From assembly GCF_004010195.1 (NCBI RefSeq), contig NC_057747.1:23010642-23074641 (forward strand): a stretch of DNA of 64,000 bases. The letters are read 5' to 3'. Every line of letters begins with the position of its first letter. Position 1 is the first letter of the stretch. Below the pieces are notes generated by a model. That model had not been told where the DNA came from and did no database searches. It saw only the letters and a program-made list of their open reading frames with translations. A program made the translations under genes and the position numbers. Positions 2,509 through 56,400 of this stretch are shown piece by piece. This stretch comes from Chiloscyllium plagiosum (taxonomy: Eukaryota).

Positions 2509-4115
2509 TCATGCAGTTTTTGAGCTCAGAGTTCTACATGAATGATTGCAGTTTTTGAGCAAAGTACAATGTAACCCTGCAAGTACAAATTCACCCCACA
2601 AAATATATGTGTGCAATTGGGTCTTTGTCTGTGTGTGTCTGTCTGGGTTGGGGGTTGTGAGTGTGAGAAAGTTTATGTGTGTGTGTGTAGTGAGTGCAGA
2701 GTGTCTTAAGTCTGTGAGGGGGTGCATGTGTGAGTGTGGGAGTGTGTGTGTCTGTGAGGGTGTGTGTGAATGTCTGTGTGTGCATCTGTGTATATGTGTG
2801 TCCGTGTGTATGTGTGTATAGGAATGCCGGTGTGTGTGTGACAGTGTGTGTGTAGGAGTATCTGTGTGTGTGTATAGTGCAATGGTGGTCACCTATAATG
2901 TGGCCCTCCCTATGGTACTGAACTTAGCTATCAGCCTCTGCTCGGCCACTTTTCGCTGCTGCCTGTCCCGACGTCCGCCTTGGAGGATGGTCACCCGAAG
3001 ATCCGAGGTCAAATGTCCTGTACCACTAAAGTGTTCCCCAACTGGGAGGGAACACTCCTGTCTGTTGATTGTTGTGAGGTGCCCATTCATCCATTGTTGT
3101 AGCCTTTGCTCGGTTTCCCCAATGTACCATGCCTCAGGGCATCCTTGCCTGCAACATATAAGATAGGTGGCTGAGTCGCATGAGTACCTGCCATGTACAA
3201 GGTGGGAGGTGTCCCCACCCGTAATGGTGGTACCTATGTCCACACTCTGACATGTCTTGCAGTGCCTTCTGTGACAGGGTTGTATGGAGTTGTCTTGAGA
3301 GCCGGGCAGCTTGCTACGAACAATCTGTTTGAGGTTTGGCGGCTGCTTAAAGGCTGGAGGTGTGGGGAAGGTCTTGGTGAGGTGCTCATCCTCATTGATA
3401 ATGTGTTGCAGGTCACGAAGAACATGGCGTAGTTTTTCAGCTCCTGGGAAATACTGAACGACGAAGGGTACCCTGTCGGTTGCAGCACGTGTCTGTCTCC
3501 TCCTTGCTGTGGCACATCAGAACTGGCGGTCGATGAGTTGGTCATTGTACCCCGTTCTTGTGAGGGCATCCCTGAGTACTTCCAGGTGTCCGCCACGTTC
3601 CTCCTCATCTGAGGAGATCCGGTGTACGCGTAGGGCTTGTCCATAGGGGTGGCTGTTTTAATATGTTTTGAGTGGAAGCTGGAGATGTGTAGCATTGTGA
3701 GGTTGTCTGTGGGTTTGCGGTAGAGTGAGGTGCTGAGGTGTCTTTTTTAGATTAGAATCAATCTGAACATCATGGCATAGACAGAGAACAGAGGGGCTAA
3801 CACCTTCAACATGTTGTCTCGCTATCGCCATTGTTAACAGCTAACCGGAGAATGCAACTTTAAAAAAAAAATGTTTTGTGATTTACACATGAAAGAAGTG
3901 AAACTATCACTGTATTCTAACAGATGAAAGGCCTAACAATCAAATTTTTCAATGTATAATTTCAGTTACATCACACTGTAAATTTTTGCCCTAAATTCTG
4001 TGTTACGATCGAGCCCTCTACTACCACCTGATGAAGGAGCGTCGCTCCGAAAGCTGGTGCTTCCAATTAAACCTGTTGGACTATAACCTGGTGTTGTGTG
4101 ATTTTTAACTTTGTC
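2509..4115 (-). mobile_element. Penelope-like element (RT C-terminus plus GIY-YIG, frameshifted) with an inverted terminus
   Basis: CRQGCPEAWYIGETEQRL...AEQRLIAKF at 2893-3243; TG-rich 3' region; + strand terminus 3745-4115 carries a hammerhead core. Confidence 0.85.
4024..4059 (+). ncRNA. Hammerhead-like motif, probably inactive (CUG triplet)
   Basis: ccacCTGATGAaggagcgtcgctccGAAAgctggtg; G at the cleavage position. Confidence 0.5.
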
Positions 4116-4140
4116 CACTGCCAAGAGTGCGACTGCCGCA

Positions 4141-4375
4141 GATCACGTGACCTCGGTCAGTGTCACAGGGAAGATGACGGACCCGTTCGGTTGTTTGGGG
4201 GGGAATGTTGTTACGTGACGGACCCGGTCGGTGGGGCGGAAGTCGTTAAGCGACGGAACCCGCTAAGCGACGGAACCCGTTCGGTGGGGGCGGAAGTCGT
4301 TAAGCGACGGAACCCGTTCGGTGGGGGCGGAAGTCGTTAAGCGACGGAACCCGTTCGGTGGGGCGTGGGGGAAGA
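4141..4375 (+). promoter_or_regulatory. ECD CpG-rich proximal promoter: TCACGTGA E-box plus about 3 copies of a 37-bp repeat containing GGGGCGGAAGT (GC-box/ETS)
   Basis: GATCACGTGACC at 4141; unit cggtgggggcggaagtcgttaagcgacggaacccgtt repeated over 4229-4365, directly upstream of the ECD ATG. Confidence 0.65.
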
Positions 4376-4398: not shown

Positions 4399-29174
<24,776 letters not shown>

Positions 29175-32656: not shown

Positions 32657-33171
32657 TCAGGTGGTGATACACATTGCCTCTTTCTTCATTCCTGTATTCA
32701 GCTTCCAGGCTTCTTTATACATATAGACCCCTACTCCACTGATACTGATGAGAAGGCTGGTGAGAAGAGGGAGTGAGAAAGTCCATTCATGTGGGGAAAT
32801 GTTTCTCAGCATCAGTATGTCTGTCTTTGCAACTTCAAATATGTTCATGGTCAGGGCTGAGCTCATCAAGGTGCACAGGAAGACAAGAAAATTCAGCAAA
32901 CACCCAAGCAGCAGCACCAAGGAGAAGAAGCCCAAAAAGATCAGACTGGACCAGCTGCCCGATGAGAAGATCTGAGGAGTATCAGGATGGAGAAGGCAGT
33001 ATAGCAGCAGCAGCGGACAGGTATTAATGCTACACGTGTAATAGACATCCACCACCGACGACTTGCGGTCTTCATACATCTCCTGGATCAAAATGAGGTA
33101 CGTGCTCTTGAACATGAGATTTAATACTCCATAGGCATATACCAGAGCTTCATCAGTGAAGTTCTGAATCC
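32657..33171 (-). CDS. SLC35D3-like last coding exon
   Basis: cctgcttag acceptor; IQNFTDEALVYAYGVL...LCTLMSSALT...EAMCITT then stop. Confidence 0.88.
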
Positions 33172-36100
33172 CTAAGCAGGAACAAATTAGATCAATTCAT
33201 GTTTAGAAAGCTGAATAAAACACTGGAAATGGTTTCTTTTACACTTGCACTTTCTTAAAACAGATCTGCAATGATTAACTTTGAAGTACAGTGGTGTAAA
33301 AGGCTAGCTAGAATAGCATATTCTTCTTCAAATCTTACCTGCAAGAGCAGAGCACAAAGTCACCAGCAGTACCAAGAAAGCACTGTTGGAGGATGTTCTT
33401 TTCTTCAACTTGAATATTTCTGTCAATGCCAAGGTGGCCAGGGGTGTAAACTGTCTGATAAAATTAAACCCTACGGAGTTGGAGCTGGTCACAGCCCACA
33501 GGGTTAGCACTGAATGAAAACTAAAACAAATAGAAGGAAGCAGGAAAATCTCTCCACTCTCCAGTGAGTACGGCTGGATCTTCAACAGTCTGGCTTGGCT
33601 CAGCAATTGCAGCACCACAACGGTCAATAATGCCTAACAAAAGATAACACAATGGAACAGTACTATGCAGAGGAACTTGGATTTACATGCACTTTGCATG
33701 TCTCCCAGAAAGTCTCAAAGAATTTTACATGCAATAGATTCCTTAAAAATGTAATGACCATGAAGCACATTAAGTGGCTGTTTAATGCAGAGTGAGATCC
33801 CACAAATTACAATTACATTAATTGACAGCTGATTTGCTATTCTTAGTGTTGGTTGAGGAAGTTAAAGGGGACTTAGAATAATACGGCACAGTACAGGCCC
33901 TTCAACCCTCAATGTTGTGCCAACCTTTTATCCTACTCTAAGATCAAACTAATCTACCTGCCCTTCATTTTACTACCATCCATGTGTCTATCGAAGATTC
34001 GCTTCAATAGGTCATTAAGGGACTGGATGTTTTCTATTAAATTTGTTTAGAGATAGAGTTAAAAATCACACAACACCAGGTTATAGTCCAACAGGTTTAT
34101 TTGGAAGCACGAGCTTTGAGAGCGCTGTTCCTTCTACCACCTGATGAAGGAGCAGTGCTCCGAAAGCTAGAGCTTACAAATAAAATTCTGTGGCTGAATA
34201 CTTCAACTCCCCCTCCCACTCCACCACGGACATGCAGGTCCTGGATCTCCTCCATCGCCAAATCCTAACCACCCAATGTTTGGAGGAAGAACGCCTCCTC
34301 TTCCACCTTGGAACCCTGCAACCACACGAGTTTAATGTGGATTTCACCAGCTTCCCCATTTCCCCTCCTCCCAACTTATCCCAGTCCCAAACCTCCAACT
34401 CTGCACTGTCCGCTTGACCTGTCCATCATCTTTCCCATCTATCCGATCCACCCTCCTCTCCGACCTATTATCTTCCTACCCACCTTCATCTACCTATTGC
34501 ATTCCCAGCTACCATCCCCCGAGTCCCACGCCCCTCCCATTTATCTCTCAGCCCCTGCCCTGCTCATAAACCTCACTCCTGATGAAGGGCATATGCCTGA
34601 AATGTCAATTCTCCTGCTCCTCGGATGCTGCCTAACCTGCTGTGCTTTACCAGCACCACACTCTTGACTCTGTCGGACTATAACCTTGTGTGATTTTTAA
34701 TTTTGTCCACTACAGTCCAACACTGGCTCCTCCACATCCTGTTTAGAGATGTTATTGCATAACTCTAGAGCAGACAGAATGTGAATACAGACCTCCTGGC
34801 TCAGAGGTAGGGACATTACCACTGCAGCACAGGATCAGGGGTGGTTCTGCTATAAATTGTTGTGTTCTGAATTGGCTATTTAGCCCAATGCAGAATCCAT
34901 AGACTCTGCCACACACAGAGCAGCTGGTGCTTGCTGGGTTGAGTGAATGCATTGTTGGACATTTGTGTGCACCCTGCGTTGTCCCAGCTTCACCCCTGCA
35001 CATTCTCATTTTGTTTGCTGCCCTCCCAAATGAATTGGAGGTGCTGGTGTTGGACTGGGATGTACAAAGTTAAAAATCACACAACACCAGGTTATAGTCC
35101 AACAGGTTTAATTGGAAGCACACTAGCTTTCGGAGTATCGCTCCTTCATCAGGTGAAGAACTGCAGTGCCTGTGCATAATATGGACAACAGCTGTCCCTG
35201 TATATCATATAGAGAACAGCTGTCCCTATGCATAATACAGAGAGCAGCAGTCGCTCCGTATAATATGTATCACAACAGTCACTGTGTCTATTCTCAGGAA
35301 CAGCAGTGTATAGTATATAGAACAGCAGTCTCTGTGTACAATACACAGAATAGTTGTCCCTGTGTTTAATACAGAGAAAACTATCACCTGATGAAGGAGC
35401 GACACTCCGAAAGCTAGTGTGCTTCCAGTTAAACCTGTTGGACTATAACCTAGTTTTGTGTGATTTTTAACTCCCAAATGAACTTTGTGTATTTTCGTTG
35501 GTCATGAGCCTGTGTCCCACATACATTGGCGAGGGTCTGTTTGATCTCTTCAGTGCTGTCTTCAGGACATCCCTAAAGTGTTGCTCCTATCCTCCTGGGA
35601 GTCTCCTGCCACAAACGAGCCTCTGGATAGAGCAACTCATTCTCAGCACCATACCACAATACTTGAAGAACTGACACACAAACATGAGAAGGCCGAGTGA
35701 GAGCGAGAGGCCCTGTCCCTAGCTTCTCTGTTCATGGCACAGAGTAACCTCACGCGCCATCCCAGAGTACTTTCACCACATGGTCTCCAGCAGGTTCACG
35801 TGGATTGCTCGATGCCCATCTTCCCAAAGGCATTATGGGAATGGAGCAATAAACTTGCCAGTAATGCCAACGTCATATCAATGGATAAAAGGAAAGCTGA
35901 AAGCCAAAACAAAACAAAACAAAAACAACACAAAACTGCTAACCAATTTCAGGGCATAAGCAGGGACATTCTTCTTTGACTCCAAAAGGTGACGATGATC
36001 CAAAACAGCCGTAAAACATCTACAAATGATCGTAAAAAGACAGATTGACTTACGTATCCGCATTAACCCAATAGAAGTTGTTTAAGTCAATAGAAGCCTC

Positions 36101-37179
36101 AATATACAGACGCGAGGAGTAAAAATGGGGGACTATGGAGGAAAAAGCGAGGCAGTAGAATTAATCCAGAGGCCCTATCGAAAAGTCGGCACAGGTATAG
36201 TGGGCAGAATAGCTCCTCCTGTGCTTTATAGTTTGATGATTCTCTATTACATGGGGTGGAGGGTGGAATTCAGTCCCAATTTTTTTTATTAGTAATGACA
36301 GCAGAGATAAAATGACAGGTCCAAGAGCGAAGTACAGCTGACTCTCCTAACCTGACAGACAGCGATGAAAGCAGGGAAGCCGAAGCGGTACTGGTTGATG
36401 AAGACCCCATTGAAGAACTCGGAGAAGCCGGAGCAGAGTGTGTAGACAGCCCAGAAGCCCAACAACCAGCTGCCGCACTGGAGCCAGCGACCAGCAGAGT
36501 TCTGCACAGGGACTGCCGCTACCATCCTGGGGAGACCAACTGGCATGCAATTAAAAATTAACTTCAGACTCATTTATAATGCAGCAGCAGGCGAGAGGCA
36601 GTCTGCACTATCTGCATAGACCTTTAATCCCACTGCAGTCAATGATCTACAGGGTACTGATCAACATTTAATAAGAAGAAAAGACCTGGAAATCAGAAAA
36701 GGAAAAATAATGCTCAAAGCACATGGTTCATCCAAAATCAGTTAACATTGTGAGTGTGGCCTGACACGAAGCTATAAACACCTGAAAGAAAGGGCAAGAA
36801 TTGAATTTCATATTACACCTTTAATCACTTCAGCAGGTCCCAATTTGTCTATCTTTTCAGCATATTTTACATGACAACGGTAACCATGCTTCATTTGGCT
36901 GTGAAGCACTTTGCGTGACATAAATGCAGGCTCGAGCTCCGTTTCAGATGCTGGCGAGTCTCTTTTGTAATTGCAGAACTTTCTTAATTTCCTTCTGGAA
37001 AAGTGGCATTGACAAGGCCGTGGTGAGGGTGGGTTCCGATTATAATTTCAGCATCACTCAATATTGCTTCCTTGAGCTGGAGAGTTTAATGTTAAAACGC
37101 AATACTCTCACCATAAGCCAGCAGAGGGGGACGTGGGGGGAGGTACAGGAAGGATGGTGTGGGGATTGGTGGGCGCCAT
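32657..37179 (-). CDS. SLC35D3-like nucleotide-sugar transporter (SLC35D family), 350 aa with the putative first exon, or 327 aa from ATG 36525
   Basis: Exons 37179-37112 (putative), 36526-36352, 33633-33339 and 33171-32657 splice in frame. The protein has multiple hydrophobic helices. Segments SVLTLWAV, CSALAG|..YGVL..TYLILIQ, PLLLLYC..D....SW and LLGCLLNF...CT..SSALT...VAK resemble remembered SLC35D3, including the intron after ALAG. Confidence 0.85.
33339..33633 (-). CDS. SLC35D3-like exon (ALLTVVVLQ...CSALA)
   Basis: ttttgttag acceptor, GTAAGA donor, open hydrophobic frame. Confidence 0.88.
34058..34740. mobile_element. Composite Penelope insertion (fold-back terminus plus nested GIY-YIG C-terminal fragment)
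   Basis: ORF 34190-34417 (EEERLLFHLGTLQP); CTGATGA...GAAA cores at 34141 and 34579. Confidence 0.78.
35121..35156 (-). ncRNA. Minimal hammerhead ribozyme (Penelope-associated)
   Basis: tcacCTGATGAaggagcgatactccGAAAgCTAgtg on the - strand. Confidence 0.75.
35384..35419 (+). ncRNA. Minimal hammerhead ribozyme (Penelope-associated)
   Basis: CAC-CTGATGA-a-GGAG-cgaca-CTCC-GAAAG-CTA-GTG; palindromic AGCT stem III. Confidence 0.75.
36352..36526 (-). CDS. SLC35D3-like exon (TM1, ...FFNGVFINQYRFGFPAFIAVCQ)
   Basis: tctccccag acceptor, GTTAGG donor, YRF.FP motif typical of the SLC35D N-terminus. Confidence 0.85.
37112..37179 (-). CDS. SLC35D3-like putative first coding exon (MAPTNPHTILPVPPPTSPSAGL)
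   Basis: ATG at 37179, GTGAGA donor at 37111; phase 2 joins the single G before ATG 36525 to give an in-frame TGG. No homology support. Confidence 0.5.
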
Positions 37180-37431: not shown

Positions 37432-37884
37432 GGTTTAGCGAGTTTTGAGAAGATTTGTAGCACAAGTTGAGGTTCTGGATGTAAGTTTGCTCGCTGAGCT
37501 GGGAGATTTGTTCTCAGACGTTTTGTCACCATACTAGGTAACATCATCAGTGGGCCTCCGGTAAAGCACTGGTGGTATGTCCCACTTCTTATTTATGGGT
37601 TTAGGTTTTCTTGGGTTGGTGATGCCATTTCCTGTGGTGATGTCGTTTCCTGTTCTTTTCTCAGTGGGTGGTAAATGGGATACAAGTCAATGTGTTTGTT
37701 GATAGAGTTCTAGTTGAAATGCCATGCTTCTAGGAATTCTCGTGCGTGTCTCCAGCAGGTCTGCAATTCAGGCAGCAATTCAGGCAGCGTCCAACGAGCA
37801 GCGAAATCGACGTTTCAGGCAAAAGCCCTTCATCAGGAATAAAGGCAGAGAGCCTGAAGCGTGGAGAGATAAGCTAGAGGAGGG
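37432..37884 (-). mobile_element. Two adjacent Penelope terminal fragments from different families
   Basis: 37432-37751 resembles 16950-17200; 37752-37884 is a direct repeat of about 39480-39595; hammerhead cores present. Confidence 0.75.
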
Positions 37885-37908: not shown

Positions 37909-38526
37909 TGTTAGAAACAAAATTCAATAAAATTATACGAGACCACCAAAGCTGGAAACAAGACAATTTATTCTACGATCTTGCAAGAAAGGACCCCAAT
38001 TGCAGAAAGCAATTGAAGTGATGATTATTCAAACTACTACACAGTTATACTTTTGAGCTGCGCGAGGTCACCTCTCCCGACTCCTGCATTACTCAATCTC
38101 CCTTAGTATTTTGCCTCTGCCCATCTATGCTCCACACCCATTGCCCCCTTCCCCAGGTTGGCAACCTTCCTCCCTGTAAGTGCTGACACATTATTTTGTC
38201 GATAGTACATCAAGATCTGGTTTAACATTTTGTATCAGTTCTGCTGGTACATTCCATCTTCGGACATTTCATTAACTTGTATCATTTTGTATAGCCCAAG
38301 CATTTCAGTTATCTCAGCTTTTTGCTGAAAGCATAATTTTTAAAAAGAATTTATTTGCTATAATAATTACACACCAAAGTTAGTATTTAATTAACCACAA
38401 TTATACACTGAAAAGTAGAGATACTCTTCCCTAAATACCTGCAGAGTTAATAGTTCTCTTGCTGTACCCCTTTTCTGTATGCTTTTTCTATATCTGCAAA
38501 AACAACACTTTTCCCCATTTCTAACA
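37909..38526 (-). mobile_element. ERV 3' LTR (618 bp)
   Basis: 9-bp terminal inverted repeat TGTTAGAAA...TTTCTAACA; purine tract GGGAAAAGAAAAGAAATGGGGGAGT (38551-38527) directly upstream; GTATAA at 38050-38045 and AATAAA at 37972-37967 on the - strand. Confidence 0.85.
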
Positions 38527-39422
38527 ACTCCCCCATTTCTTTTCTTTTCCCATTTGTTGTTTTTGCAGTTTTATTTTCTGCCCTCTTTTAACTCTACGGT
38601 GCAGAGGTTCACAATCTTGCCATTTCTGTCCTTCTAAATCTGTCTTTTTCAAACTCCAGGAGTAATCTGCTACTCCCTCTTTCTTGCGCTTGTATTGTCC
38701 TCCCAAAGACATTACCAGCTTAGTCATTATCCATTTTAACACATTGAATCCTAGCAGTAAACCTACAATTATTAGTAATAGATGTATGCCTAAATTAGCT
38801 GCCCATTTTCCCCAACCGGTCAGTCTCCAGTCACCCCATCCCCATCTTTCATCTTTTCGGCGTTCATCCGCAATTTCTCTTATATTGCTTATCTTTTTCT
38901 TTACTATTTCTGCCGTATCTTCCACTATGGGATGAAGGTGCAGCATTCCTTACCAATCAGCGCACAAGTTCCCCCTTTTTCGGCCAAGAGATAATCTAAA
39001 GCCATTCGATTCTGTAAAGCTGTTAGTCTTGTTGCTATCATTTTGGTGGTTATGGCTGATATCTGGGATTGAGTTTCTCCCATTGCGCCGGTGGTATCCT
39101 TAATTACATTTTCAAGGGCAGCCACCAGTTTCTGTATTTCCACCCCTGCCCTTGTAGTGCTGTAGTTTGGGAGTAGTGTCCACAGCAGGCGGTCTCCTTC
39201 AGGGACCTCTCGGGTCTTACGTCTTTTTCCCCCCCCCCCTCCTTTCTTAGGTTGGGCTATTCGGAGGTGAGGGACTATATAAGCAAGGTATTGGAACCAC
39301 TCTAGCCTTTCTTGTTTTAAGGCAATACTTCATCAATTTCATTACATGCATTTATTTTCACACATTCGGTTTCACGAATGTATTTTTCCCCGGGAATAAA
39401 TGGATAGGCCTTCAGACCACAT
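38521..39422 (-). pseudogene. env: Endogenous retrovirus env remnant (end of SU plus TM subunit), frameshifted
   Basis: KRRKTR cleavage site, heptad repeat, immunosuppressive domain LQNRMALDYLLAEKGG, CX6CC motif (CALIGKECC), Trp-rich juxtamembrane region and TM helix LGIHLLLIIVGLLLGF; frameshifts near 38930 and 39320. Confidence 0.9.
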
Positions 39423-40160
39423 AGGTAAAAACAATGACTGCAGATGCTGGAGACCAGATTCTGGATTAGTGGTGCTGAAAGAGCACAGCAGTTCAGGCAG
39501 CATCCAAGGAGCTTCGAAATCGACGTTTTGGGAAAAGCCATTCATCAGGAATAAAGGCAGTGAGCCTGAAGCGTGGAGAGATAAGCTAGAGGAAGGTGGG
39601 GGTGGGGAGAAAGTAGCATAGAGTACAATGGGTGAGTGGGGGAGGGGATGAAGGTGATAGGTCAGGGAGGAGAGGGTGGAGTGGATAGGTGGAAAAGGAG
39701 ATAGGCAGGTAGGACAAGTCCGGACAAGTCATGGGGACAGTGCTGAGCTGGAAGTTTGGAACTAGGGTGAGGTGGGGGAAGGGGAAATGAGGAAACTGTT
39801 GAAGTCCACATTGATGCCCTGGGGTTGAAGTGTTCCAAGGCGGAAGATGAGGCGTTCTTCCTCCAGGCGTCGGGTGGTGAGGGAGCAGCGATGAAGGAGG
39901 CCCAGGACCTCCATGTCCTCGGCAGAGTGGGAGGGGGAGTTGAAATGTTGGGCCATGGGGCGGTGTGGTTGATTGGTGCGAGTGTCCCGGAGATGTTCCC
40001 TAAAGCACTCTGTTAGGAGGTGCCCAGTCTCCCCAATGTAGAGGAGACCGCATCGGGAGCAATGGATACAATAAATGATATTAGTGGATGTGCAAGTAAA
40101 ACTTTGATGGATGTGGAAGGATCCTTTAGGGCCTTGGATAGAGGTGAGGGAGGAGGTGTA
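39423..40160 (-). mobile_element. Penelope-like element 3' part (GIY-YIG endonuclease plus terminus)
   Basis: ORF 39762-40163 IIYCIHCSRCGLLYIGET...RRLEEERLIFRLGTLQPQGIN; degenerate hammerhead near 39520-39550. Confidence 0.88.
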
Positions 40161-43100
40161 CATTTAAGTTGTCATTGAACAAGCATATGGACGTACATGG
40201 AATAGTGTAGGTTAGATGGGCTTCAGATTGGTATGACAGGTTGGCGCAACATCGAGGGCCAAAGGGCCTGTACTGCGCTGTAATGTTCTATATGTTCTAT
40301 GTGTGAGATGCCTTATTTCCCAGCCACCATCTGTTCTCAAGAAGGGTCACTGGACCTGGAGCATTAACTCTGCTTTCTCTCCATGCAGGCTGTCAGGTCT
40401 GCTGAGTTTCTCCAGCACTTTGATTTTTTTTTCAGATTTCCAACATCTGCAGTTCTGTTTATTTCTGAAATACTGTTACCGTGACAATACCACTGCGCCA
40501 CTGTCTTCCCAAATGTTTTTAGGGGAAACCCTTGGAATATGTCAGTAAATGCTGTTAATGCCCAAGAATATATCAATTTTGTGAGAGTTGTCTGAGGGTA
40601 GTTACTGGGAAGCAGGCTGAAGGGAGACATTGGATCGCTAGGATGTTGTCAACATATGCAGGAGGTCATTTGAGTTGATATGGCAAAGAAAGAAAAACGA
40701 CATTGCAGCTATTCAGCACCTTTCAGATCCTCAGAACTTTCCAAAGTATTTTTACAGCCAAAGGAAAACATTTTTGACATGCAGTCACTCTTATTACTTT
40801 GGCAGATTATGAGTGAAACATGATGATTTGTGTTGATTAGTCCAGAAATTGGCTGAATTGTCATCTGTAGCTTCCAAACAGCGTCACTGTTAAGGATTGA
40901 TTTTCTTACAGCACGTTCCTAGAATGCAACATCACTTCTTGGGAAGGTCATTAAGGAATTTCAGGGACTTGTGCAAAAATTGATGAAGAATTCATGTTGA
41001 TTTTCCAATACATGCAGAGTGTCTCAAGTCTGGCCCTCCAAAAACTGGATAAAATCAAAATTCTGCAGATGGTGGAAATGTGAAGCAAACACTGAGAATG
41101 CTGAAGACACTCAGCAGCATTTGTGAGAATTAATACTTCAAGTTATATTAAATATATCCCTTGATCTATATAAATACTGAATAATTCCAATATTTCTTAA
41201 TAATGTTTTAAAGTTCAGTATTGAATGTGATAGATTGGTGAGATGACATTTGAAGTCTTAACAGTTGTTGCATTAAGCAGAATTTAAGGTTCAGCTCCAA
41301 AGGTTGCTGAAGAATTCCTTACTGGCTAAATTAAGGTTCAGTCATTTAGATTACATGCTGAATAGAAAATTCCTTAGCTTGCAAAAACAAGAATTGTTGT
41401 TAACATCTGCCATTCAATGAGGTCATGGGCTGATCTGATTTTAACTTCAACCCTACATTCCTGCACATTTGTAAGTGACAATAACATGTAATATAATTGT
41501 CAATACAGATTCGTTAATACAGTAGGCTCATCCATGTCAACATGATATGCTATATGTGTTAAATATACAGGTTGAATGACAAGTGTGTAACGTGGACATT
41601 TGTTCTGAAAAAGTGACAGGTCAGCAATATAGTTGCAAACCGCTTTGGGGAAGTTGAAAAATGTCATAAAAGGAACTATGCAGATCAATCATTGTGGCTG
41701 GTGAAGGGGAGATGGCAAAATGCTGACAATAGCATTTAGATTTCTGAAACTAAAACAAAATACAGGGAGTATTAAATACGTATGGCAGCATCTGTGGAGA
41801 GAAAAACAGTTGATGCTTCAGATAGATCTTTCATGGGCTCTGCCCTAAAAGGCTTTGTTAATGGTATGTTTGCATGTGCCTTTTCCATATCATTTGCACA
41901 TCTATCTGTGTCGTTTGTTCGCTTGTGATTGCCTGTCAAGAGGAGTATCCTTGATGGTTTCCTACGAAAATTAGATGAGCAACCTCACAGAGGCTAGTTC
42001 AATTGCAACATGTAAAAGGCATCTGGATGGGTATATGAATAGAAAGGTTTTGAATGGATATGAGTCGGGTGCTGGCAGGTGGGACGAGATTGGTTTGGGA
42101 TATCTGGTCGGCGTGGACAAGTTGGACCGAAGGGTCTGTTTCTGTGCTGTACGACTCTATGAGTCTATGTCCCAAATACTCTTTCACCTACTTGGTATCT
42201 ACCTCTGTCTTAAATATATTTTTTTAAAAATTTAACTCCTCTGTATCCACTGCCTTTTAAGAAAGGAAATTCTGACACTTATTTTCTTATCTGTATCTTA
42301 ATTGGCAACCCTTATTTTTAAGCTATAAACCTTAATTCTAAATTCTCCCACAAGAGGAAATATCCTTTCAACATTCATTCAGTCAAGTCCCCACAAAATT
42401 GAATGTGTTTCAATTAAGTACATGTATTTAAGCTTTTATATCTTTTGCTTGATGGAAGAGGTTGGAAGAAATTATAGCTGTGGTGGGAAGAGTTTTTGAT
42501 TATGTTTCAATTAAGTCTCCTTCGACTCATCTAACTTTCCCCATAAGGCAATCAACTCGCATTACAGAAGATCTTTCATGACCTACAAATGTCCCACAGG
42601 CAACAGAATACTTTGAAGAATAATAACTGCTGTAAATAAGATGCATGAGAATTAAGAGACGCATTAATGTATGAATTTTAAGCGAGATTGATTTTTCTTT
42701 TATGTTTCATTTCGCTTCCTTGTTCATCTGTACTTTATAACTTGCACTCACCAACTTTAGAAGTTGCTGTTCCATCCTTTGGTGATTTTATTTCAAAAGT
42801 ATACTTTACTCATAAAAAAGTTTATATATATATGACACACACATACATTGTCACAAACACCATTTGGTTCTGAACACCTGGTGCCTCAAATGCATGCAAC
42901 TATATTTTATTTCAGTTTCCTCCATTAGTGGCGTTTTACATCTATGTCATGTGTCATAAACATTCACCAATTGCTTTACACGTAACAAAATATACTGTGT
43001 CTTAGTTATCTAATAACTTTCAGTTGATGTTATTTTTAATCTTTTGTTAAAAGTTTTAAAACACAAAATCTGGCCATTTGATCCTTTTGAGTTGATGACT

Positions 43101-47235: not shown

Positions 47236-47424
47236 TCAGGATGGCTGCTGACTTTCGGTCCATTCCTTGATTAGTTGATGTGCTACAGCCCACGGTGGTG
47301 GGATCCAAAATGGAACATCTCCCATTTCTTTCTTGGTGGGCATCCGCTTACGTTTTAAAGCTTCCGTTAGCTCCTTAGCATCAAACCAGCGAGCAGCCTC
47401 AAGCTCCGAGTGGTTCAGGTCAAT
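47236..47424 (-). CDS. NUDT13: NUDT13 last coding exon
   Basis: [14 protein letters not shown]...[17 protein letters not shown] then TGA. Confidence 0.93.
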   Translation of the reverse strand: MDLNHSELEAARWFDAKELTEALKRKRMPTKKEMGDVPFWIPPPWAVAHQLIKEWTESQQPS

Positions 47425-50400
47425 CTAGTCATAATCAAATGAAAGTCAGCAATTTGGAAATTACAGCACTGGTAGTGAAACACTTGTCAGATATAACAGT
47501 AATACTGGAACCTCTGTTAACGTAAGGAAATCAAGGCTCTATCGCAATTCTGCAACTGGTTAAAGGTTAGAAACAACTGAAAACTAGCTCGTTAGCAATT
47601 TGTCTGCGTTAACAACTAATGGCTGTTTTACACAAAGAGATTGTGATGATTGCCTGACAAGGGAAAGACCAACTTCTCCACAGTGAACAACGGGAGTTTC
47701 AAAGAGTTTGGGAATTCAGCGTTAGCATCTCTCTTTGGCTGCTTGTTATGTTCAAAACATCCACTTGGTTAAAGAGTTCAACTGTAAATCCTTTTTTATA
47801 TCCGGTGTAAAGATTAAATGATAGGCAAGATAGGCAAGAATAAGGATGAGTAAGAAATTTCTGGTCTTGTTGACAATGCACAAATCCTGAGAATGAACAA
47901 AATTGATTTAGTACATTTTAGCTGATTTCACTTAGAAATAAAAGACAATTTTTCCCTTGCCTTCCTAAATCAGGATGTGTTGACCAATTCCAAGGCATTA
48001 TCACATTTTATGTGGAGAATAACATTCTGACATCAATCCGAGGTTTGTTTGGATTAGTTTAGACATGGCTTTTAGAACCAAGGTCTGGCACCAGCAAATT
48101 CTGCAGCAAGGGCTGCTCCTTTTAATTTGGATAAAGCGCAATAGGGGAATCGTAGAAACAGCTTTGCTTGACATCCAGTTCCTGTTACTTCTGACCTTGG
48201 AGTACTCTCCATATACTTTGGGTAACAAAAATGGAAAATACTCAATTCCTCATACTATCGTTAACACGCTTTAGAAGGTTATTGAATAAAAATAAAGAGG
48301 TTGGATCTGCAATACTTATTTTTTTTCTAAGAAAAGAGGATTAGAGTATCTTTAAAAAAAGTGTGCAATGAGTATTGATATAGATATTTTCATTGGACAT
48401 GATGGTGTTAGCATTTGTTCAGTGACTAACAACTTTCACTTCTCAGTCAGAAACGTCTAGTACAGGTTCCACAAACGTGAGCACCAGATTTTAGCTGGAT
48501 AATATGGATCCTAAGGGAACGCTTCATTGTTAGAAGGGCTGTATACACTTGGGTAGAGTTAAAGATCCCACAGGTTAAAAAAAAAGGACTGCAGATGCTG
48601 GAAGCCAGAGTCTAAGGTGTAGGTTTGCTCACTGAGCTGTAGGTTTGATATCCAGACGTTTCATTACCTGGCTAGGTAACATCATCAGTGGCGACCTCCA
48701 AGTGAAGTGAAGCGGTTGTCTCCTGCTTTCTATTTATATTTTTCTCCTGGATGGGGTTCCAGGGGTTTGTGGTGATGCCATTTCCTGTTTGTTTTCTGAG
48801 GGGGTTGATAGATGGCATCTAGATCTGTGTGTTTGTTTGTGGCGTTGTGGTTGGAGTGCCAGGCCTCTAGAAATTCTCTGGCATGTCTTTGCTTAGCCTG
48901 TCCCAGGATAGATGTGTTGTTCCAGTCGAAATGGTGGTTTTTTTCAGCCGTGTGTAGATAAAAATAGAAAGCAGGAGACAACAGCTTCGCTTCATTTGGA
49001 GGTCGCCACTGATGATGTTACCTAGCCAGGTAATGAAACGTCTGGATATCAAGCCTACAGCTCAGCGAGCAAACCTACACCCTAAACCTCAACCTGAGCT
49101 ACGAACCTTCACAAACCTTGCAAAAACCAGAGTCTAGATTAGAGTGGTGCTGGAAAAGTTGAGGCAGCAACTGAGGAGCAGGAAAATCGACGTTTCGGGC
49201 AAAAGCCCTTCATCAGGAAATGATCCTTAAAGATCCCACAGACCTGTTTTGAAAAAAAATGCAAGATCGCGCTGGTGTCCTGGCCAATATTTATCTTTCA
49301 ACCAACAACATTCAAACAGATTAACAGACTCTTATCAAATTTTCTAGATGCACCATAGGAAGCATTCTAACCGGATGCATCACGGCTTGGTATGGCAACT
49401 GCTCTGCCCAGGACTGTAAGAAACTACAGAGAGTTGTGGACATAGCACAGTCCATCATACAAGCCAAATTTCCATCCATTGACTCCATCTATAGTTCTTG
49501 CTGCCTTAGGAAGGCAGCCAACACGGTCACAAAGTCCCCTCCCATCCTGGTTAAAATCTCTTCTAACTTCTTCCATCAAAACCAACAGATTATAGAACAG
49601 CTTCTTCCTTTGTTACTAGACTTCTGAATAGACCTCAAATTTCAAACTCAATGCTGACCTCACACTTTGTGCAGCTTCTCTGCAGTTAGAACATAATATT
49701 GCTTCCCTTGTTCTATTACCCGGATGCACTTTTTATTGTATGACCTGCCTGTACTGCATGCAAAACAAACATTTCACTGTACCGCGGTACGTGTGACAAG
49801 AATAAATCAAATCAAGCTTATCCAGTAAGTATAGCATTGCTGTTTTTAGAGAGCTTGCTGTGCACAAATTGCTCACCGCATTTCCTACAAGTGGCTATAG
49901 TCCAGTAGAAATTAATTTCTTGAGATTGTGAGGATAAATAGAAACAAGTCTTTCTTTTAAAAGAAAGAAACTGGCAAAGTTATGCTGCACTGAACCCACA
50001 CACCTTTCTGTTGCAAAACGCTCTTTGCAGCTTTTAGAGCGAGGCACTAAGTGGGGACAGAACAAGACAAATAGAGTCAACGTTAACCACTTCTGTTATC
50101 TGCTACCTTTTTTTTGTTTTACAGGACAAGAATGGCAAAGTCACTGGATGCGGTGTCCAGTCCAGCAGCAGAGACAGGGCAAGATGAAAGAATACAAAAT
50201 AACCAAATAAACTAGATATTTCCTATAATTATTTTCATTTTCCTCATATCTTTGATCAGGACACTAATTTGCAGAATCTTATCTACCATCGGCCTGTTTT
50301 CTCTGCTCTCCACAAGTCTGACACAACTTACCTTGTTCTGCCCTGGTTGCACCATTGCATGGCAAGCAATCATCAGTGAGCTGTTGGGAAAGGGCCAGTG

Positions 50401-53400
50401 CTGAGATGCAGAATACTCTAGGGAGGATACATTCAAACCAACTTCTTCGGCAACCTCCCGTTGCACTGAGTCCTCCACAGTCTCCCCTGGGAAAAGAGGA
50501 GAAAATATTTAAGAATCCACACTTTGCGAGGAAAACAAATTTGTTGTGAATCAGTCTGAATGTATGATTGATACACAATACCATGCCTGTCAAATTGGCA
50601 AAGTGCCTCTTGCCTACAAAAAAAAGAGTGAAAATACACCTTTGCCACTCTCTAGTACCTTTACTGTGTGTCAGCAATTGTACAGGTCCTTGGTTTGGTG
50701 GCCTACCTGTGCAATGATTTATGATGGATGGGATTAGGGACAATGAGGCAACTAGGGGAAGTATGAAACTCTCCATCTTATCTGTTACACTTTCATGCCT
50801 ATGTCAGAATCTGAATCAAAGTGTGCCACATCTTTGTGGTGAATGTGGTGTTTATGGACTTCAGCAAGGCATTTGATACGGATCTCCATGGTAGGCTCGT
50901 TCAGAAGAATTTAGCTGTCTGGATACAGAATTGGCTGGTCGACAGAAGATAGCGAGTGATAGCGGAAGGAAAGTATTCTGCCTGGAAGTCAGTGGTGAGT
51001 GGTGTTCCACAGCGCTCTGCTCTTGGGCCTCTACTCTTTGTAATTTTTATTAATGACTTGGATGAGGAGATTGAAGGATGGGTTAGCAAGTTTGCAGACG
51101 ACAAACTTTGGAGGTGTCACGGACAGTATAGAGGACTGTTGTAGGCTGCAGCGTGACATTGACAGGATGCAGCGATGGGCTGAGAGGTGGCAGATTGAGT
51201 TCAACCTGGATAAATGCAAAGTGATGCATTTTGGAAGGTTAAACTTGAAAGTTGAGTACAGGATTAAAAGAGGATTCTTGGCAGTGTGGAGGAACAGCGG
51301 GATTTTGGTGTGTAGGTACATAGATCCCTTAAAATTGCCACCCAAGTGGACAGGGTTGTTAAGAAAGCATATGGTGTTTTAGCTTTCATTAACAGGGGGA
51401 TTGAGTTTAAGAGCCGTGAGATCTTGTTGCATCTCTATAAAACTTTGGTTAGACCGCACTTGGAATACCGTGTCCAGTTCTGGTCACCCTATTATAGGAA
51501 AGATGTGGATGCTTTGGAGAGGGTTCAGAGGAGGTTTACCAGGATGCTGCCTGGAATGGAGGGCTTATCTTACGAAGAGAGGTTGACTGAGCTCGGACAT
51601 TTTTCATTGGAAAAAAGGAAGAGAGGGGTTCTAATTGAGGTGTACAAGATAATGAAAGGCATAGATAGAATTGATAGCCAGAGACTTTTTCCCAGGGCAG
51701 AAATTGTTAACATGAGGGGTCATAGTTTTAAGCTGTTTGGAGGAAAGTGTAAAGGGGATGTCAGAGGTCGGTTCTTTACACAGAGAGTTGTGGGAACAAG
51801 AAATGCGTTGCCAGCAGCCATTGTGGAAGTGAGGTCATTGGGGATATTTAACAGACTGCTGAACATGCATATGGTCACAGAAATTTGAGGGTTTGTACAT
51901 TAGGTTTACCTTACATAAGGAAAAATGGTCAGCACAACATCGTGGGCTGAAGGGCCTGTTCTGTGCTGTACTGTTCTACGTTCTATGTTCTATTTCTGGA
52001 ATTGTGTACCAATATAGTGAATCTTTGAACATTTACCTATGCTTTTTTGGTTTTCACTTTCTCTTCTTGATCTCTGCACTTTATTGTTTATCTTTTCATT
52101 CTGTCTCCCTCTTTTGTAGGCCAACCTCTCTTCTCAACCTCACCATTGAGATTTCCTTTTCTCACAATGGCAAAAAAACTATAGGGTTGCAGCTTTCAAA
52201 AATGAGTTTGGAATAGGAAGTATAATTCCAAAATTTATGGATGACATCAAATTAGAACTGTAGGGAATATCAAGGAAAGCTGTGATGGAAGTGCAAGACG
52301 ACATTAATAAACTTGAGGTATTAATACACTTTTAAGAGTGGATGTGTTTTTGAGAATGAATTTCAATACAGTCAAGTGTGAACTGTTACATTTTGGTAAC
52401 AAAAGGACACACTAACGCTTAGATTATGAGTTCAAATTAGGTAGGTGAAATGGGATTTTGGGGTGCAGATGAATTAATTACAAAAAAAAAATCATTGTGG
52501 GTTAATTAAGGTCATAAATACCCAAGAATTTGTTTATACATAGACATAGGGACAGAATGAGAAAGCAGTAAAGCAACGTTAAACTTGTACTGAACCTTGT
52601 CTAGACTACAGCTGGAATAATGTGAATAGATGTAGTATCTGTGATGTGGAAAGGGTAATAGAGACATTATAGAAATAGTAATTTTAAAAATCACTAGAAT
52701 GACACCTGAAATAAGGGAACATACTTATCTAGAAAGACTGAAGATGCTTTCTTTTCTTGGAACGAGAAGTCAGAGGATGACCACATGGATTATAAAGAGG
52801 TTTGAGAAAGTAGAAATATTTTCATTCATTTAAGAGAACATGTTCTAACTTGTAGTAATACCAAATACACGAGTGCTAAATATGAAAGTGAACATGAAAT
52901 TCAATACAGAATTCTGCAGAAACCTCTATACCAACTATTTGAATAATGAACTACAACAAGGAGTAATTGCTTTGAATGGCATTAATGGACTACTCAAGGA
53001 GAAGCTAGATAAACACCTTGATGGGGGAAATGGACAGAACGATGTGGCAACAGGGTGCAATACAGTGGGGTAGTAGCTGAAGGAGTTGGCTCTGAGCACA
53101 AACATCAGAAAATTCCAGTTTATGGACCTGTTGGGTCAACGTCCTACATCCGTATTATGATTCTGTGCTTGCCTTCTCCCCATCAGCCACAATTTTTCCA
53201 TCTCAAGTATACTGCCAGACAAAGAGAGAAGTGAGAAAGCAGGCAATCCGCACACAAGGAGACTGTCTTCATGGATCACCTTATTGAGTTTCCTTACAAA
53301 AGGCTATTGGACATTTTCAGGTGTAATAGTAACAAAAGCCCATCCATGTGGTTACATTTCACAGTAAAAACAAATTGAATACCTTTTATTTGCACAACAT

Positions 53401-56400
53401 TACAGTGATACTTCGAGTAATGTACAAGAAATGCTAATTACCAATATCACAGAATCCAGCCAGGGCACTGTACATTCCAGGGGGAAATAACTTCTGACGT
53501 GCCAGCAGGCAGTGTGCTCCATCAGACACCAGCACAATAATTACAGGAGACACCTGGTAATAAAGAAATAGAGTGTGATTGGGCAGCAGGAAGGCTGCAG
53601 ATGTTGCAGCAATTGTTGACTTCGCTTTTTTGTTTAATTAGTAATAACCACTCATAATAACAGCTACTCTTCTGATAATCTGAGCGACTGCAATTAGTAG
53701 AAATAGGTAGGGTGAGTGTCACTAACATCAGGCAAAAAGGAACGAAGTTGCAAAAGACTCTGTGCTGTACTTTGAAAACCATTAACTTAGGCTAAGCAAT
53801 GAAATTAGTATACAATTACAGAGAGCCCGGGCACAAAAAGATAAATGGGACACAGCGAGAAAATGGAATATTTTATCCAAAATAGGAAGATGAAGGAAGA
53901 ATTATTAAGACCATAAAAAAATAGGAACAGGAGTAGGCCATTCAGCCCCTTGAGACTGCTTCACCATTCTATAGGATCATGACTGGTCCAACGTTCCTCA
54001 CTTCCCCATAACCCTTGATTCCATTACTTATCAAGAATCCATCTCAGCCTTAAAAACACACATCGACTCTGCTCCTACAGCTCTCTGTGGCAAGGAGATC
54101 CAAAGAATCTCAACCCTCCTTATCCCAGTCTATAATTAGCACTCCTTAATTCTGCGATTATGCCCTCTGGTCTTAAGACTCTCCATGAGGGAAAACATCT
54201 TCTCAACAGTTATGCTGAGAAACCCCTTAAGAGTCCTGTATGTCTCAATGAGGTCACCGCTCATTCTTCTAAACTCCAATGAGTAGAGTCTCAACCGGTT
54301 TAAGTTTTGCTCATAACCTAATCCCTCCATACCAGGATTCATCAGAGTGAACCGTCTCTGAACTGCCTCCAATGAAATAATGTATTTTCTTAAACAGAGG
54401 GACCAAAATTGCTCATAGTACTCCAGGTGAGGTCTCACCAGTACTTTGTATGGTTGGAGTAAGACACTCCTTGAAATAAAGCTGGAAAAGTGCAGCAGGT
54501 CAGGCAGCATCCAAGGAGCAGGAGAATAGACGTTTCGGGCATGAGCCCTTCTTCAGGAATTGAAGGGCTCATGCCCAAAACGTCGATTCTCCTGCTCCTT
54601 GGATGTTGCCTGACCTGCTGCGCTTTTCCAGCAACACATTTTCAGCTCTGATCTCCAGCATCCGCAGTCCTCACTTTCTCCTTGAAATAAAGGTCAACAT
54701 TCCATTAGTCTTCCAGACAATACAAGTGCTTGCTTTCTTGCAAGATACCAAAGTCTGTTTGGGTGATGCAGCTTTCTGCATTTTTTTTTACAATTAAATA
54801 ATTCTGTCCTTTTGTTCTTCCTTCCAAAACAAACAACATTGAATATTCCCACTTTTATACTCCATTTACCAATTTTTTCCCCAATTAAATCAATCAATGA
54901 ATAATCTTTCTGCAAGCCACTTGTATCCCTCTCAGAACCTTCCTCTCAACCTATTTTTGTGTCATCGCAAATTTGGTTACAATACATTTGCTTCCTTTCT
55001 CCAAGTCATTAATATATATTGTAAACAATTCAGTCCCAGCACTGATCCCTGTGGAATTGCACTGGTCACAGATCGCCAACCTGAACAAGAACCCCTTATC
55101 CCCACTCACTGTTTCCTACCCATTAGCCAATTCTCCATCGATACCATTAACACCACAGATTCTTAACTTATGACTTAAGTTTTTGGTGAGGTACCGTCTA
55201 TGCCAGAGAAAAAAAGTTAGTTAAATGTTAATTAGATTCTTGCTATAATGCTTACCTGCGGGTAGTAGGTTATTTCTTCTGAGCTACAGATACGTTTACT
55301 GCCTGACATATTCTTGTGTGTCCGACGTCCAGTTCTACTGCAATAGAGATGTGTGCTGTGCCAGCGGAGAAGACCCTGTGCCTAAAATATATTCGTTATT
55401 GTCTTGACATTTCCAGACAGTCTGATCTGATGTACAAGCACAGTCCGAAACCACAGAACATGCAATGCAAAATCCAAAGAAGTCATTCCTAAAATGTACA
55501 GCAACGCTGAAAAAAGCAGGCAGAAAACATTTGCTAATATTTTATAACAGAGACCAATACTGAAAACTGGCCATTAGGAAGGAAAGAGTCTTACATTATA
55601 ATTTTCCCATCAATAGATACACTGATAATTGCTTTAATTAAAAAAACATGCTAAATTGTGATGATACAAATAAAACAATCGATAACAATTATTAATTAAA
55701 ATGAAAATATAGTACAAGATTATAAAAGGATTGCATATTTATGAACATTTCATTATACAAATAAAATCAACATGCTATAATAAAGAATGATTCATCGGAC
55801 TATTTTCGATTTACCACCTCTGTAGCAATGTTTAATGTTACTAATTTGTATTTATACAGCGAAAATAAAACAGAATGAAATCACCAAAAGTTAAAAATTC
55901 CTGAATTGTATAAAAGGAAAATGCGTTATCACTGTGCTAATATGGTGTGAATCACTGGCTAAGGGTGAACTGAACCAGAATGTGTGGGATGGGGGTGCAT
56001 AGTGGGTATTACTGGACTAATAATCCAGAAACCAGGACTAATAACCAAGAGACGAGTTCAAATCCCATCAGAGCACTGTGTGAATTAAATCCAGTTAATG
56101 AAATAAATCTGGAGTAGAAAGTTATTAAAAACAACAGTAACCATGAAACTACTGGATTGTCATAAAGACCCATCTAGTTCTCTCATGTCCTTTAGAAAGG
56201 AAAACTGCCACTCTTACCCAGTCTGGTCTACATATGACTCCAGATCCACAACAATGTGGTTGACTGTTAACTGTCCTCCGAACTGGCTGAGCATGCCACT
56301 CAGTTAGCTCACTATCACCCTCTTGGACAAGCAGGTTTCAGGAATAAATGTAAGCCTTTCCAGTGATGTGCATAACTGGAAAGTTTAAACCTGGGTTTTG

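What the first reader, a model, noticed from the sequence alone, without database searches (positions are those of the whole stretch)
4024..54677. At least three families of minimal hammerhead ribozymes spread by Penelope termini
Seen: repeated CTGA(T/A)GA-stemII-GAAA-NUH motifs with three different stem II and stem III sequences. Family A is GGAG..CTCC with AGCT (35121, 35384, 34138, 22245, 4024). Family B is GTTACCT/AGGTAAT with ACGT (48652, 49006, degenerate at 37515 and about 17000/17800). Family C is GGGC....GCCC with ACGT (49185, 37804, 54525, 34579). The catalytic core is conserved while the stems covary. Known: Penelope-like elements carry minimal hammerheads whose palindromic stem III works as a dimer. 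Inference: this genome holds a very dense, probably unannotated ribozyme load, and intact copies lie sense within introns of NUDT13 and the SLC35D3-like gene.
Basis: partly seen in the sequence, partly recalled or inferred. Interest (0 to 1): 0.7.

Follow-up and report, generated by a model that had tools for sequence, protein, structure and literature searches.

The report
Shark Penelope hammerheads with cutting record
These are real minimal hammerhead ribozyme motifs on the end-pieces of known Penelope-type jumping genes, with over 116,000 intact cores in this shark genome; the copies in host introns are likely idle, but U6 RNA copies joined exactly at the predicted cut suggest that the motif does cut the jumping gene's own RNA in the germ line.

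Summary
The motifs exist and exceed chance: 10 descriptor hits in the window against 0.015 in shuffles. This kind is described (PMC4209133). Exact-pattern counts total 116,027 genome-wide. Most sampled copies are stubs of about 100 nt, and half sit in head-to-head pairs. Host-cutting is not supported: catalytic G12 decays like its neutral neighbour (3,550 vs 3,346), sense copies are not purged from introns (79 vs 93), and three of four sense intronic copies here are predicted to be locked by their antisense arm. Two features bear on mechanism. Stub 5' ends pile up at the ribozyme's first bases, often after an extra G, as run-off copies of capped, uncut RNA would. At five loci U6 is joined exactly at the predicted cut, indirect evidence of cleavage in vivo. 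The scan noted all this before, on other DNA of this genome and in other genomes; the extra-G and U6 leads came from those notes and I re-tested them.

The parts
2480..4112 (.). Family A Neptune-like PLE with a 5' inversion: RT thumb, CX4CX2C linker, GIY-YIG and 3' UTR on - (2480-3742), rest of 3' UTR, hammerhead and tail on + (3744-4112)
   Evidence: Colinear with locus L199 at 6152-7389 (inverted) and 7387-7758; L199 ORF has an RVT_1 hit over the Pfam cut-off
4028..4056 (+). Family A hammerhead motif, G at position 17 (not a cleavable triplet); upstream of the ECD-like start
4808..4892 (-). Family C terminus lacking CTGANGA
16950..17905 (.). Family B2 two-armed head-to-head insertion with endonuclease C-terminus; decayed hammerheads at 16991-17024(-) and about 17797-17830(+); 15-bp flanking duplication with 1 mismatch
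22135..22366 (.). Family A head-to-head stub pair; 22221(-) has a stem II deletion, 22247(+) has G12 to A
23688..23787 (-). Family D terminus, decayed (others at 30751+, 40334+, 37259-37357-, 60475-60551+)
34056..34185 (.). Family A stub pair; hammerhead 34141-34169(+) with broken stem I; partner arm lacks CTGA
34188..34680 (+). Older C-type PLE 3' end: endonuclease C-terminus, 3' UTR, decayed hammerhead at 34579, tail
35035..35470 (.). Family A head-to-head pair around a 28-bp minisatellite; core-intact hammerheads 35124-35152(-, sense in intron 1 of the SLC35D3-like gene) and 35388-35416(+); 12-bp target duplication; tail on one arm only
37434..37751 (-). Family B2 3' end, hammerhead with G12 to A; intergenic
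37773..37884 (-). Family C2 terminus, hammerhead 37809-37836 (core intact, 2-bp stem I); intergenic
39459..40159 (-). Family C2 PLE 3' end with GIY-YIG endonuclease (39765-40163), 3' UTR and decayed hammerhead at about 39551
   Evidence: Weak Pfam GIY-YIG hit, E 0.059; 92% identical to L182 over 701 nt
48610..49123 (.). Family B1 two-armed insertion; endonuclease C-terminus 48733-48957(-); core-intact hammerheads 48655-48688(-, sense in the last NUDT13 intron) and 49009-49042(+); 13-bp flanking duplication with 1 mismatch
49121..49225 (-). Family C2 solo stub, hammerhead 49189-49216, sense in the last NUDT13 intron; stem II predicted to form, stem I only 2 bp
54482..54677 (.). Family C1 stub pair; 54529-54556(-) has a broken stem I, 54561(+) is truncated in the core; 15-bp target duplication; tail on one arm only; in a NUDT13 intron
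59725..59788 (+). Family A terminus lacking the 5' core
32660..36525 (-). Host gene, SLC35D3-like (3 coding exons)
   Evidence: 94% to a Chiloscyllium punctatum protein; tblastn
47239..61954 (-). Host gene NUDT13 (8 coding exons)
4400..29171 (+). Host gene with Pfam SGT1 exons (ECD; the name is recalled); limits approximate

Best explanation
The motifs are minimal hammerheads carried on the end repeats of at least five Penelope-like retrotransposon families, copied into this shark genome over 116,000 times mostly as short stubs, likely selected in the source elements' RNA and likely idle once inserted. Shown: each of A, B and C continues upstream into an endonuclease gene; stubs end at fixed tail positions, often head-to-head inside one target duplication; copies decay at near-neutral rates. 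Inferred: reverse transcription starts in the tail just downstream of the ribozyme, on one or both nicked DNA strands, and usually runs through an uncut ribozyme to stop at the RNA's capped 5' end, which lies at or just before stem I; this gives the stubs and two-armed inserts. Inferred: in the element's own ribonucleoprotein the ribozyme sometimes cuts, as a dimer through the palindromic AGCU or ACGU and probably with protein help; the 5'-OH product is occasionally ligated to U6 and retrotransposed. Predicted: in host pre-mRNA a paired copy anneals to its antisense arm, which is transcribed first, and a solo copy lacks a matching partner, so cutting is rare.
For: PLE link: RVT_1 hit and a CX4CX2C linker in family A ORFs; GIY-YIG and the same linker upstream of C; GIY-YIG without a linker upstream of B (L192, broken by frameshifts). 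Covariation across family consensuses: stem I CAC/GTG, CCA/TGG, TCA/TGA, ATTC/GAAT, AGTT/AACT, AGTC/GACT; stem II of 4-7 bp; palindromes AGCT or ACGT; position 17 is A, C or T. Counts: A 17,799; C 95,326; B 2,321; D 581; reversed-pattern controls 0. Pairs: 113 of 222 A/C termini in 0.94 Mb have a divergent partner within 1 kb, 7 a convergent one; duplications of 12-15 bp flank 4 of 7 window inserts tested. Neutral decay: dead G12A 3,550 vs tolerated C11.1U 3,346 at one CpG. Introns: sense 79 vs antisense 93, p 0.32; intact solo copies 15 vs 14. Masking: P(unpaired) of the core is 0.0 for 35152 and 48688, and G10.1 of 54556 pairs with the other arm at P 1.0. 5' ends: 54 of 166 high-identity copies start at -6 to -1 of C3, 7 of 166 at +24 to +32. 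G precedes A-4 in 16 of 46 truncated and 0 of 43 long C copies. Cutting record: of 48 U6 matches, 5 junctions at 4 loci join the U6 T-tail to the first base after GUC, in four different C tail variants, with no shared base at the joint; a targeted search adds one family A locus at CUA.
Against: No cleavage assay was run. RNA reads from one run show no pile-up of ends at the cut or at a start site (717 reads laid). [quoted passage not shown] Consensus stem I of the largest subfamilies C1 and C2 is only 2 bp plus a T-T mismatch, and cofolding does not give the hammerhead dimer as the lowest-energy fold in any of 3 copies tried. Two further U6-PLE loci join inside the endonuclease gene, not at the cut. 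The 5'-end pile-up is stronger in paired copies (39 of 77) than in solo copies (11 of 43), so annealing of two cDNA ends at short near-palindromes could add to it; 4 of the 16 extra-G cases could take the G from the partner arm. Initiator-like matches are absent at stem I in families A and B. Core A/T positions are somewhat more conserved than tail A/T positions (15 of 742 vs 88 of 1,995, p 0.003), and intact sense copies number 25 vs 33 antisense, so a mild purge is not excluded.
Confidence: 0.8

Rival explanations
1. An active ribozyme load on the host: intact sense copies cut NUDT13, SLC35D3-like and many other pre-mRNAs, and are regulated or selected against.
For: Core-intact sense copies exist at 35152, 48688 and 49216. 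The dead G12A variant exceeds the tolerated variant by 6% genome-wide. Intact copies in four genes are 25 sense vs 33 antisense.
Against: The strand difference is not significant (p 0.36) and vanishes for solo copies (15 vs 14). Paired copies are predicted to be masked; stem I is family-specific, so B and C copies in one intron should not form a productive dimer. Reads show no ends at the cut. Published monomers did not cut and dimers cut weakly (PMC4209133); the anole motif needed the element's protein (PMC11167929).
Confidence: 0.1
2. The motif never cuts. It is kept in source elements as a protein-binding fold or promoter, and U6 junctions arise by template switching where reverse transcriptase stalls on that fold.
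For: Most copies run through the cut site. PMC11167929 found cleavage dispensable for insertion in vitro and no RNA-seq reads ending at the cut. Naiad PLEs proliferate without hammerheads (PMC8557442).
Against: All 5 hammerhead-region junctions in the U6 set fall on the single scissile bond, at the 5' base of the stem I 3' strand rather than at its outer edge, with no microhomology. In L232 and L242 both arms of the insertion carry the same junction, as a pre-formed chimeric RNA would give. Position 17 is never G in the ten consensuses.
Confidence: 0.2
3. The stubs and hairpins are a separate non-autonomous element (retrozyme-, SINE- or MITE-like) that spreads as its own unit.
For: Most copies are 90-230 nt, with shared ends and target duplications. 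Non-LTR retrozymes were reported in one chondrichthyan (10.64898/2026.07.22.740005).
Against: Junctions between arms differ from copy to copy and arm lengths grade from stubs to kilobases of coding sequence. Same-strand neighbours within 1 kb are fewer (25 of 222) than divergent ones (113 of 222), and no tandem hammerhead array is in the window. Only one arm carries the tail, as in ordinary PLE insertions (PMC3846280).
Confidence: 0.1

Closest known systems
Minimal type-I hammerheads (min-HHR) of metazoan PLE pseudo-LTRs (Cervera and De la Pena 2014, PMC4209133; read parts 1-2 of 4)
   Same: CUGANGA core, extra base between 9 and 10.1, G10.1-C11.1, palindromic 15.2-16.2, no helix III, several consensus families per genome, mostly solo or truncated copies, dual motifs on opposite strands 100-700 bp apart.
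   Different: No shark is named in the parts read. Counts there are about 4,000 (coelacanth) and 9,000 (Xenopus) against 116,027 here, by a different method. Stem I here is 2-4 bp and stem II 4-7 bp (4-5 and 7-8 bp in the Schistosoma families).
Anole Poseidon PAc in vitro system (Frangieh et al. 2024, PMC11167929; read parts 1-2 of 4)
   Same: Reverse transcription starts at two sites downstream of the hammerhead (the tail), on both DNA strands, from uncut RNA; this matches the fixed 3' ends, one-sided tails and two-armed inserts here.
   Different: That paper found no in vivo trace of cleavage and, in the parts read, reports no 5'-end pile-up at the ribozyme. Whether the shark ORFs start inside the hammerhead was not tested.
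Complex insertions of endonuclease-positive PLEs: pLTR, adjacent inverted 5'-truncated copy, 30-40 bp tail (PMC8557442, PMC3846280; passages)
   Same: Head-to-head arms, target duplication, optional tail, microhomology joints; Neptune-type cysteine linker in A and C.
   Different: Here the typical insert is reduced to the hammerhead plus tail, at about 236 A/C termini per Mb.
U6/LINE-1 chimeric pseudogenes made by RtcB ligation (Moldovan et al. 2019, PMC6789731; passages)
   Same: U6 ending in its T-tail joined without homology to a 5'-truncated retroelement; ligation needs a 5'-OH end.
   Different: L1 junctions are variable and attributed to an unknown nuclease; here they fall on one bond that a hammerhead would cut to leave a 5'-OH.
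Animal non-LTR retrozymes (10.64898/2026.07.22.740005; read part 1 of 5 and passages)
   Same: Type-I hammerheads related to PLE pLTRs.
   Different: Retrozymes are defined as tandem arrays with a hammerhead in each unit; these copies are dispersed and mostly inverted.

Membership tests
Minimal type-I hammerhead (min-HHR) | Core CUGANGA ... GAAA ... UH | tested here: met
   Invariant in ten subfamily consensuses; many single copies fail it
Minimal type-I hammerhead (min-HHR) | Extra base after position 9 and G10.1-C11.1 closing helix II | tested here: met
   Extra A or T in all; G-C in A1, A2, C1, C1c, C2, D; G-U in the consensus of B1, B2, A3 and E
Minimal type-I hammerhead (min-HHR) | Palindromic 15.2-16.2, no helix III | tested here: met
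   AGCT or ACGT in nine of ten consensuses; B2 (3 old copies) reads ACAT
Minimal type-I hammerhead (min-HHR) | Short helix I | tested here: inconclusive
   3-4 bp or more in A1, A2, B1, B2, C1c, D, E; only 2 bp plus T-T plus A-T in C1 and C2; 1 bp as aligned in A3 (2 copies)
Minimal type-I hammerhead (min-HHR) | Self-cleavage as a dimer or with the element's protein | not testable with these tools
   Only indirect: U6 junctions at the scissile bond; no read ends at the cut
Endonuclease-positive Penelope-like element | RT followed by C-terminal GIY-YIG endonuclease | tested here: met
   Family A: RVT_1 hit then GIY-YIG-type motif in one frame. B and C: endonuclease region directly upstream of the motif; their RT core was not examined. 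D and E: no coding link examined.
Endonuclease-positive Penelope-like element | Inverted 5'-truncated copy, optional tail, target duplication | tested here: met
Neptune clade (A, C) | CX2-5CxxC linker between RT and endonuclease | tested here: met
   PCHGRRCKTC in L199; PCNRRRCNTC in L141; feature from PMC8557442 passages
Penelope/Poseidon clade (B) | No cysteine linker; placement in an RT tree | tested here: inconclusive
   No linker seen in broken copy L192; no tree built because no named PLE reference proteins were at hand
Non-LTR retrozyme | Tandem repeats with a hammerhead in consecutive units | tested here: not met
   No such array in the window; divergent pairs dominate
Rfam hammerhead families | Match to a covariance model | tested here: not met
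   No hammerhead family among 23 matches at E up to 10

The most novel reading that the evidence does not exclude
Shark genomes hold a DNA record of the Penelope RNA life cycle. Most stubs are strong-stop-like run-off copies that map the capped transcription start to the first bases of the ribozyme, and U6 chimeras joined at the scissile bond in two families show that animal minimal hammerheads cut in the germ line and feed 5'-OH ends to an RtcB-type ligase.
Probability: 0.55. Interest if true: 0.7.

Novelty: new member of a known kind. Interest (0 to 1): 0.45.

Why it matters
Whether animal Penelope hammerheads cut in vivo, and what RNA these elements copy, is open: one paper states there is no in vivo evidence (PMC4209133) and another found none in RNA-seq (PMC11167929). 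A genome with more than 100,000 copies lets both questions be read from junction statistics and names the exact bases to test. It also shows that a vertebrate can carry this many ribozyme cores in its transcribed DNA with no clear sign of cost, which fold-back masking and partner dependence would explain. The motifs themselves are a described kind.

Tried and rejected
1. Strand bias over megabases: the listing showed 42 of 43 matches on + at G000:C1:1.62-2.95 Mb. A direct scan of 200 kb there gave 13 on + and 10 on -, and C termini and control repeats were unbiased. It is an artefact of the listing and was dropped. 2. Long intact PLE ORFs of 800-2,000 aa were assembly gaps; the longest gap-free PLE frames seen were 597 and 595 aa. 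No full-length element was recovered. 3. A first core-versus-tail test (3.0% vs 7.3%) was confounded by subfamily-diagnostic sites and base composition; redone by base class. 4. A 5'-end peak at +44/+45 was mostly family D tails hitting the C query. 5. Insertions ending at the cut: 1 of 161 hits ends at +27. 7. Cofolding did not favour the hammerhead dimer, which is weak evidence either way. 8. Rfam microRNA matches at 17273-17539 and 54497-54616 are the fold-back arms, below gathering scores. 9. Literature searches for shark or Chiloscyllium PLE hammerheads and for U6-Penelope chimeras listed no paper on the subject; the library lacks most subscription papers and Repbase was not available.
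Full report
Setting. The window is G000:C38:23010642-23074641 of a 3.56-Gb assembly. Host proteins place it in a carpet shark close to Chiloscyllium (94% identity for the SLC35D3-like protein; NUDT13 96% to Rhincodon and Hemiscyllium). It holds an SGT1-domain gene on + (ECD, name recalled), an SLC35D3-like gene on - (36525-32660) and NUDT13 on - (61954-47239). Hammerhead numbering (C3, G12, H17) is recalled standard usage.

Observation. All cited sites carry the motif or a decayed form. A descriptor gives 10 hits in the window against 0.015 on average in 200 dinucleotide shuffles. Rfam does not detect them.

What carries them. Family A is the 3' end of an RT plus GIY-YIG element with a CX4CX2C linker: the window's 2480-4112 matches L199 in two adjacent pieces, the upstream piece inverted. 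Family C follows a GIY-YIG domain with the same linker. Family B follows a GIY-YIG domain with no linker seen. By the diagnostic quoted in PMC8557442 (passages), A and C are Neptune-like; B is Poseidon-like by absence only, as no tree was built. The coding links of D and E were not examined.

Covariation. Across ten subfamily consensuses the core, the extra base after A9 and U16.1 do not vary, position 17 is A, C or T, and stems change together: stem I CAC/GTG, CCA/TGG, TCA/TGA, ATTC/GAAT, AGTT/AACT, AGTC/GACT; stem III AGCT or ACGT. The two largest subfamilies, C1 and C2, have a weak stem I (2 bp, a T-T mismatch, then A-T). This is the min-HHR of PMC4209133 (parts 1-2 of 4 read; supplements not read, and they may hold shark motifs).

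Abundance. Exact patterns give 17,799 (A), 95,326 (C), 2,321 (B) and 581 (D), with 0 for each reversed control: 116,027 in all. These patterns fix the core through U16.1 and stem II; only the D pattern also fixes position 17 and stem I, so the total is not a count of competent ribozymes. In 100 stretches of 10 kb chosen without regard to motif content, apart from 20 taken to check a strand bias (0.94 Mb without gaps), there are 222 A/C termini at 78% identity or more; 76 weaker, family B or in-window hits of the 298 were left out. PMC4209133 gives about 4,000 and 9,000 motifs for coelacanth and Xenopus by another method. The supplements of the 2026 preprint, which includes one chondrichthyan, are closed and could bear on any claim of a record.

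Insertion form. Of the 222 termini, 113 have a divergent partner within 1 kb, 7 a convergent one and 25 a same-strand one. Four of seven window inserts tested have 12-15 bp flanking duplications, and in the 35035 and 54482 pairs only one arm carries the extra tail. The 3' ends fall at a few fixed positions. This matches known PLE insertions (PMC3846280, PMC8557442, passages) and the finding that the anole enzyme extends both strands from two internal start sites (PMC11167929, parts 1-2 of 4).

Fate after insertion. In 106 copies that span the motif, core G/C sites differ from consensus at 17 of 318 against 101 of 1,966 in the tail, CpG sites at 17 of 106 against 37 of 150 (p 0.12), and A/T sites at 15 of 742 against 88 of 1,995 (p 0.003). 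Genome-wide, the two outcomes of one CpG are nearly equal: catalytically dead G12A 3,550, tolerated C11.1U 3,346. So conservation is mainly a property of source elements. In 800 kb inside four large laminin-G genes whose strands come, A/C termini are 79 sense and 93 antisense, intact ones 25 and 33, intact solo ones 15 and 14. A short-read assembly could dilute a bias, and a mild purge is not excluded.

The window's intronic copies. Sense copies with a full core are 35152 (SLC35D3-like intron 1), 48688 and 49216 (last NUDT13 intron) and 54556 (stem I broken). In 600-nt context folds, 35152, 48688 and 54556 pair with their antisense arm, which precedes them in the transcript; 49216 keeps stem II but has no same-family sense partner in its intron. 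These are predictions. One RNA run laid on a C1c copy gave 717 reads in both directions, continuous across the cut, with no place where many molecules begin or end; the library's strand rule is unknown and reads come from many loci.

Where copies begin. Of 166 copies at 85% identity or more, 54 start at -6 to -1 of C3 and 88 at -12 to +5, but 7 at +24 to +32; upstream sequences inspected are unique flanks or the partner arm (output partly cut). An initiator-like YYANWYY sits on the first base of stem I in C1, C2, D and E; an internal initiator promoter is known for Drosophila Penelope (PMC2377424, passages). Following a lead from earlier scan notes, I found G directly before A-4 in 16 of 46 truncated and 0 of 43 long C copies (G vs A 16 to 7, p 0.009; this set includes loci picked by motif searches). 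An untemplated G is the recalled signature of copying a cap. The inference is that most stubs are run-off copies of the capped, uncut front of the RNA. Microhomology between arms is a live alternative for paired copies.

Evidence of cutting. Also from an earlier scan lead, I searched for U6 (Rfam RF00026): 48 matches were scored out of a much larger candidate list, and all 48 were read. Five junctions at four loci (L215, L232, L242 twice, L249) join the U6 T-tail to GATT, the first bases after GUC, in four different C tail variants and with no shared base at the joint. L232 and L242 are two-armed inserts with 14- and 13-bp duplications, and both arms carry the same junction. Two other loci (L227, L231) join inside the endonuclease gene; six downstream sequences were checked by BLAST and the rest by eye. 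A targeted pattern found one family A locus joined after CUA. RtcB joins U6 cyclic-phosphate ends to 5'-OH RNA (PMC6789731, passages), and hammerhead cleavage leaves a 5'-OH (PMC6155905, passage). Ligation and template switching at an RNA end would both need the cut. Searches for such chimeras in print listed nothing on the subject.

Verdict. The motifs are new members of a described kind. Cutting of host introns is unlikely on present evidence. The value lies in the junction record, which makes the in vivo role of these ribozymes and the start of PLE RNA directly testable. The scan has noted the same picture before in this genome and others; those notes were leads, not support. Interest 0.45.

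Noticed in passing
window 38524-39329 (-): Retroviral envelope-like fragment (Pfam TLV_coat, E 2e-6), intergenic; described only.
   Followed up: no
window 2480-4112: Family A insertion whose upstream part is inverted against its 3' part at a near-exact breakpoint, the geometry of twin priming known from LINE-1 (recalled); it sits about 300 bp upstream of the ECD-like start.
   Followed up: partly
window 35157-35378: A 28-bp minisatellite (8 copies) lies between the two family A arms, inside the target duplication; possibly captured foreign sequence.
   Followed up: no
L141:6054-6065: The C1c tail contains AATAAA, and 60 reads leave the reference a few bases later into a poly(A) run; a PLE tail may serve as a polyadenylation site somewhere, or this is internal priming.
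   Followed up: no
L213, L220, L221, L225, L230, L233-L240, L243, L246, L252-L254: About 18 of the 48 U6 matches are followed within 30 nt by the 5' end of the common SINE of this genome (counted by eye).
   Followed up: no
L216, L218: One U6 copy is followed by a tRNA-like sequence and another is preceded by a 5S-like 3' end (identities recalled).
   Followed up: no
window 4264-4363 and 63482-63687: GC-rich tandem repeats near gene starts: 37 bp x 2.7 with GGCGGAAGT boxes before the ECD-like gene, and 45 bp x 4.5 upstream of NUDT13.
   Followed up: no
window 32660-36525 (-): The SLC35D3-like gene between ECD and NUDT13 had only cartilaginous-fish relatives among the 9 longer proteins found.
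   Followed up: no
G000:C1:1.62-2.95 Mb: The place listing of the pattern search under-reports minus-strand matches, which mimics a strand bias.
   Followed up: yes
window 62188-63156: Assembly gap of 969 N upstream of the first NUDT13 coding exon.
   Followed up: no
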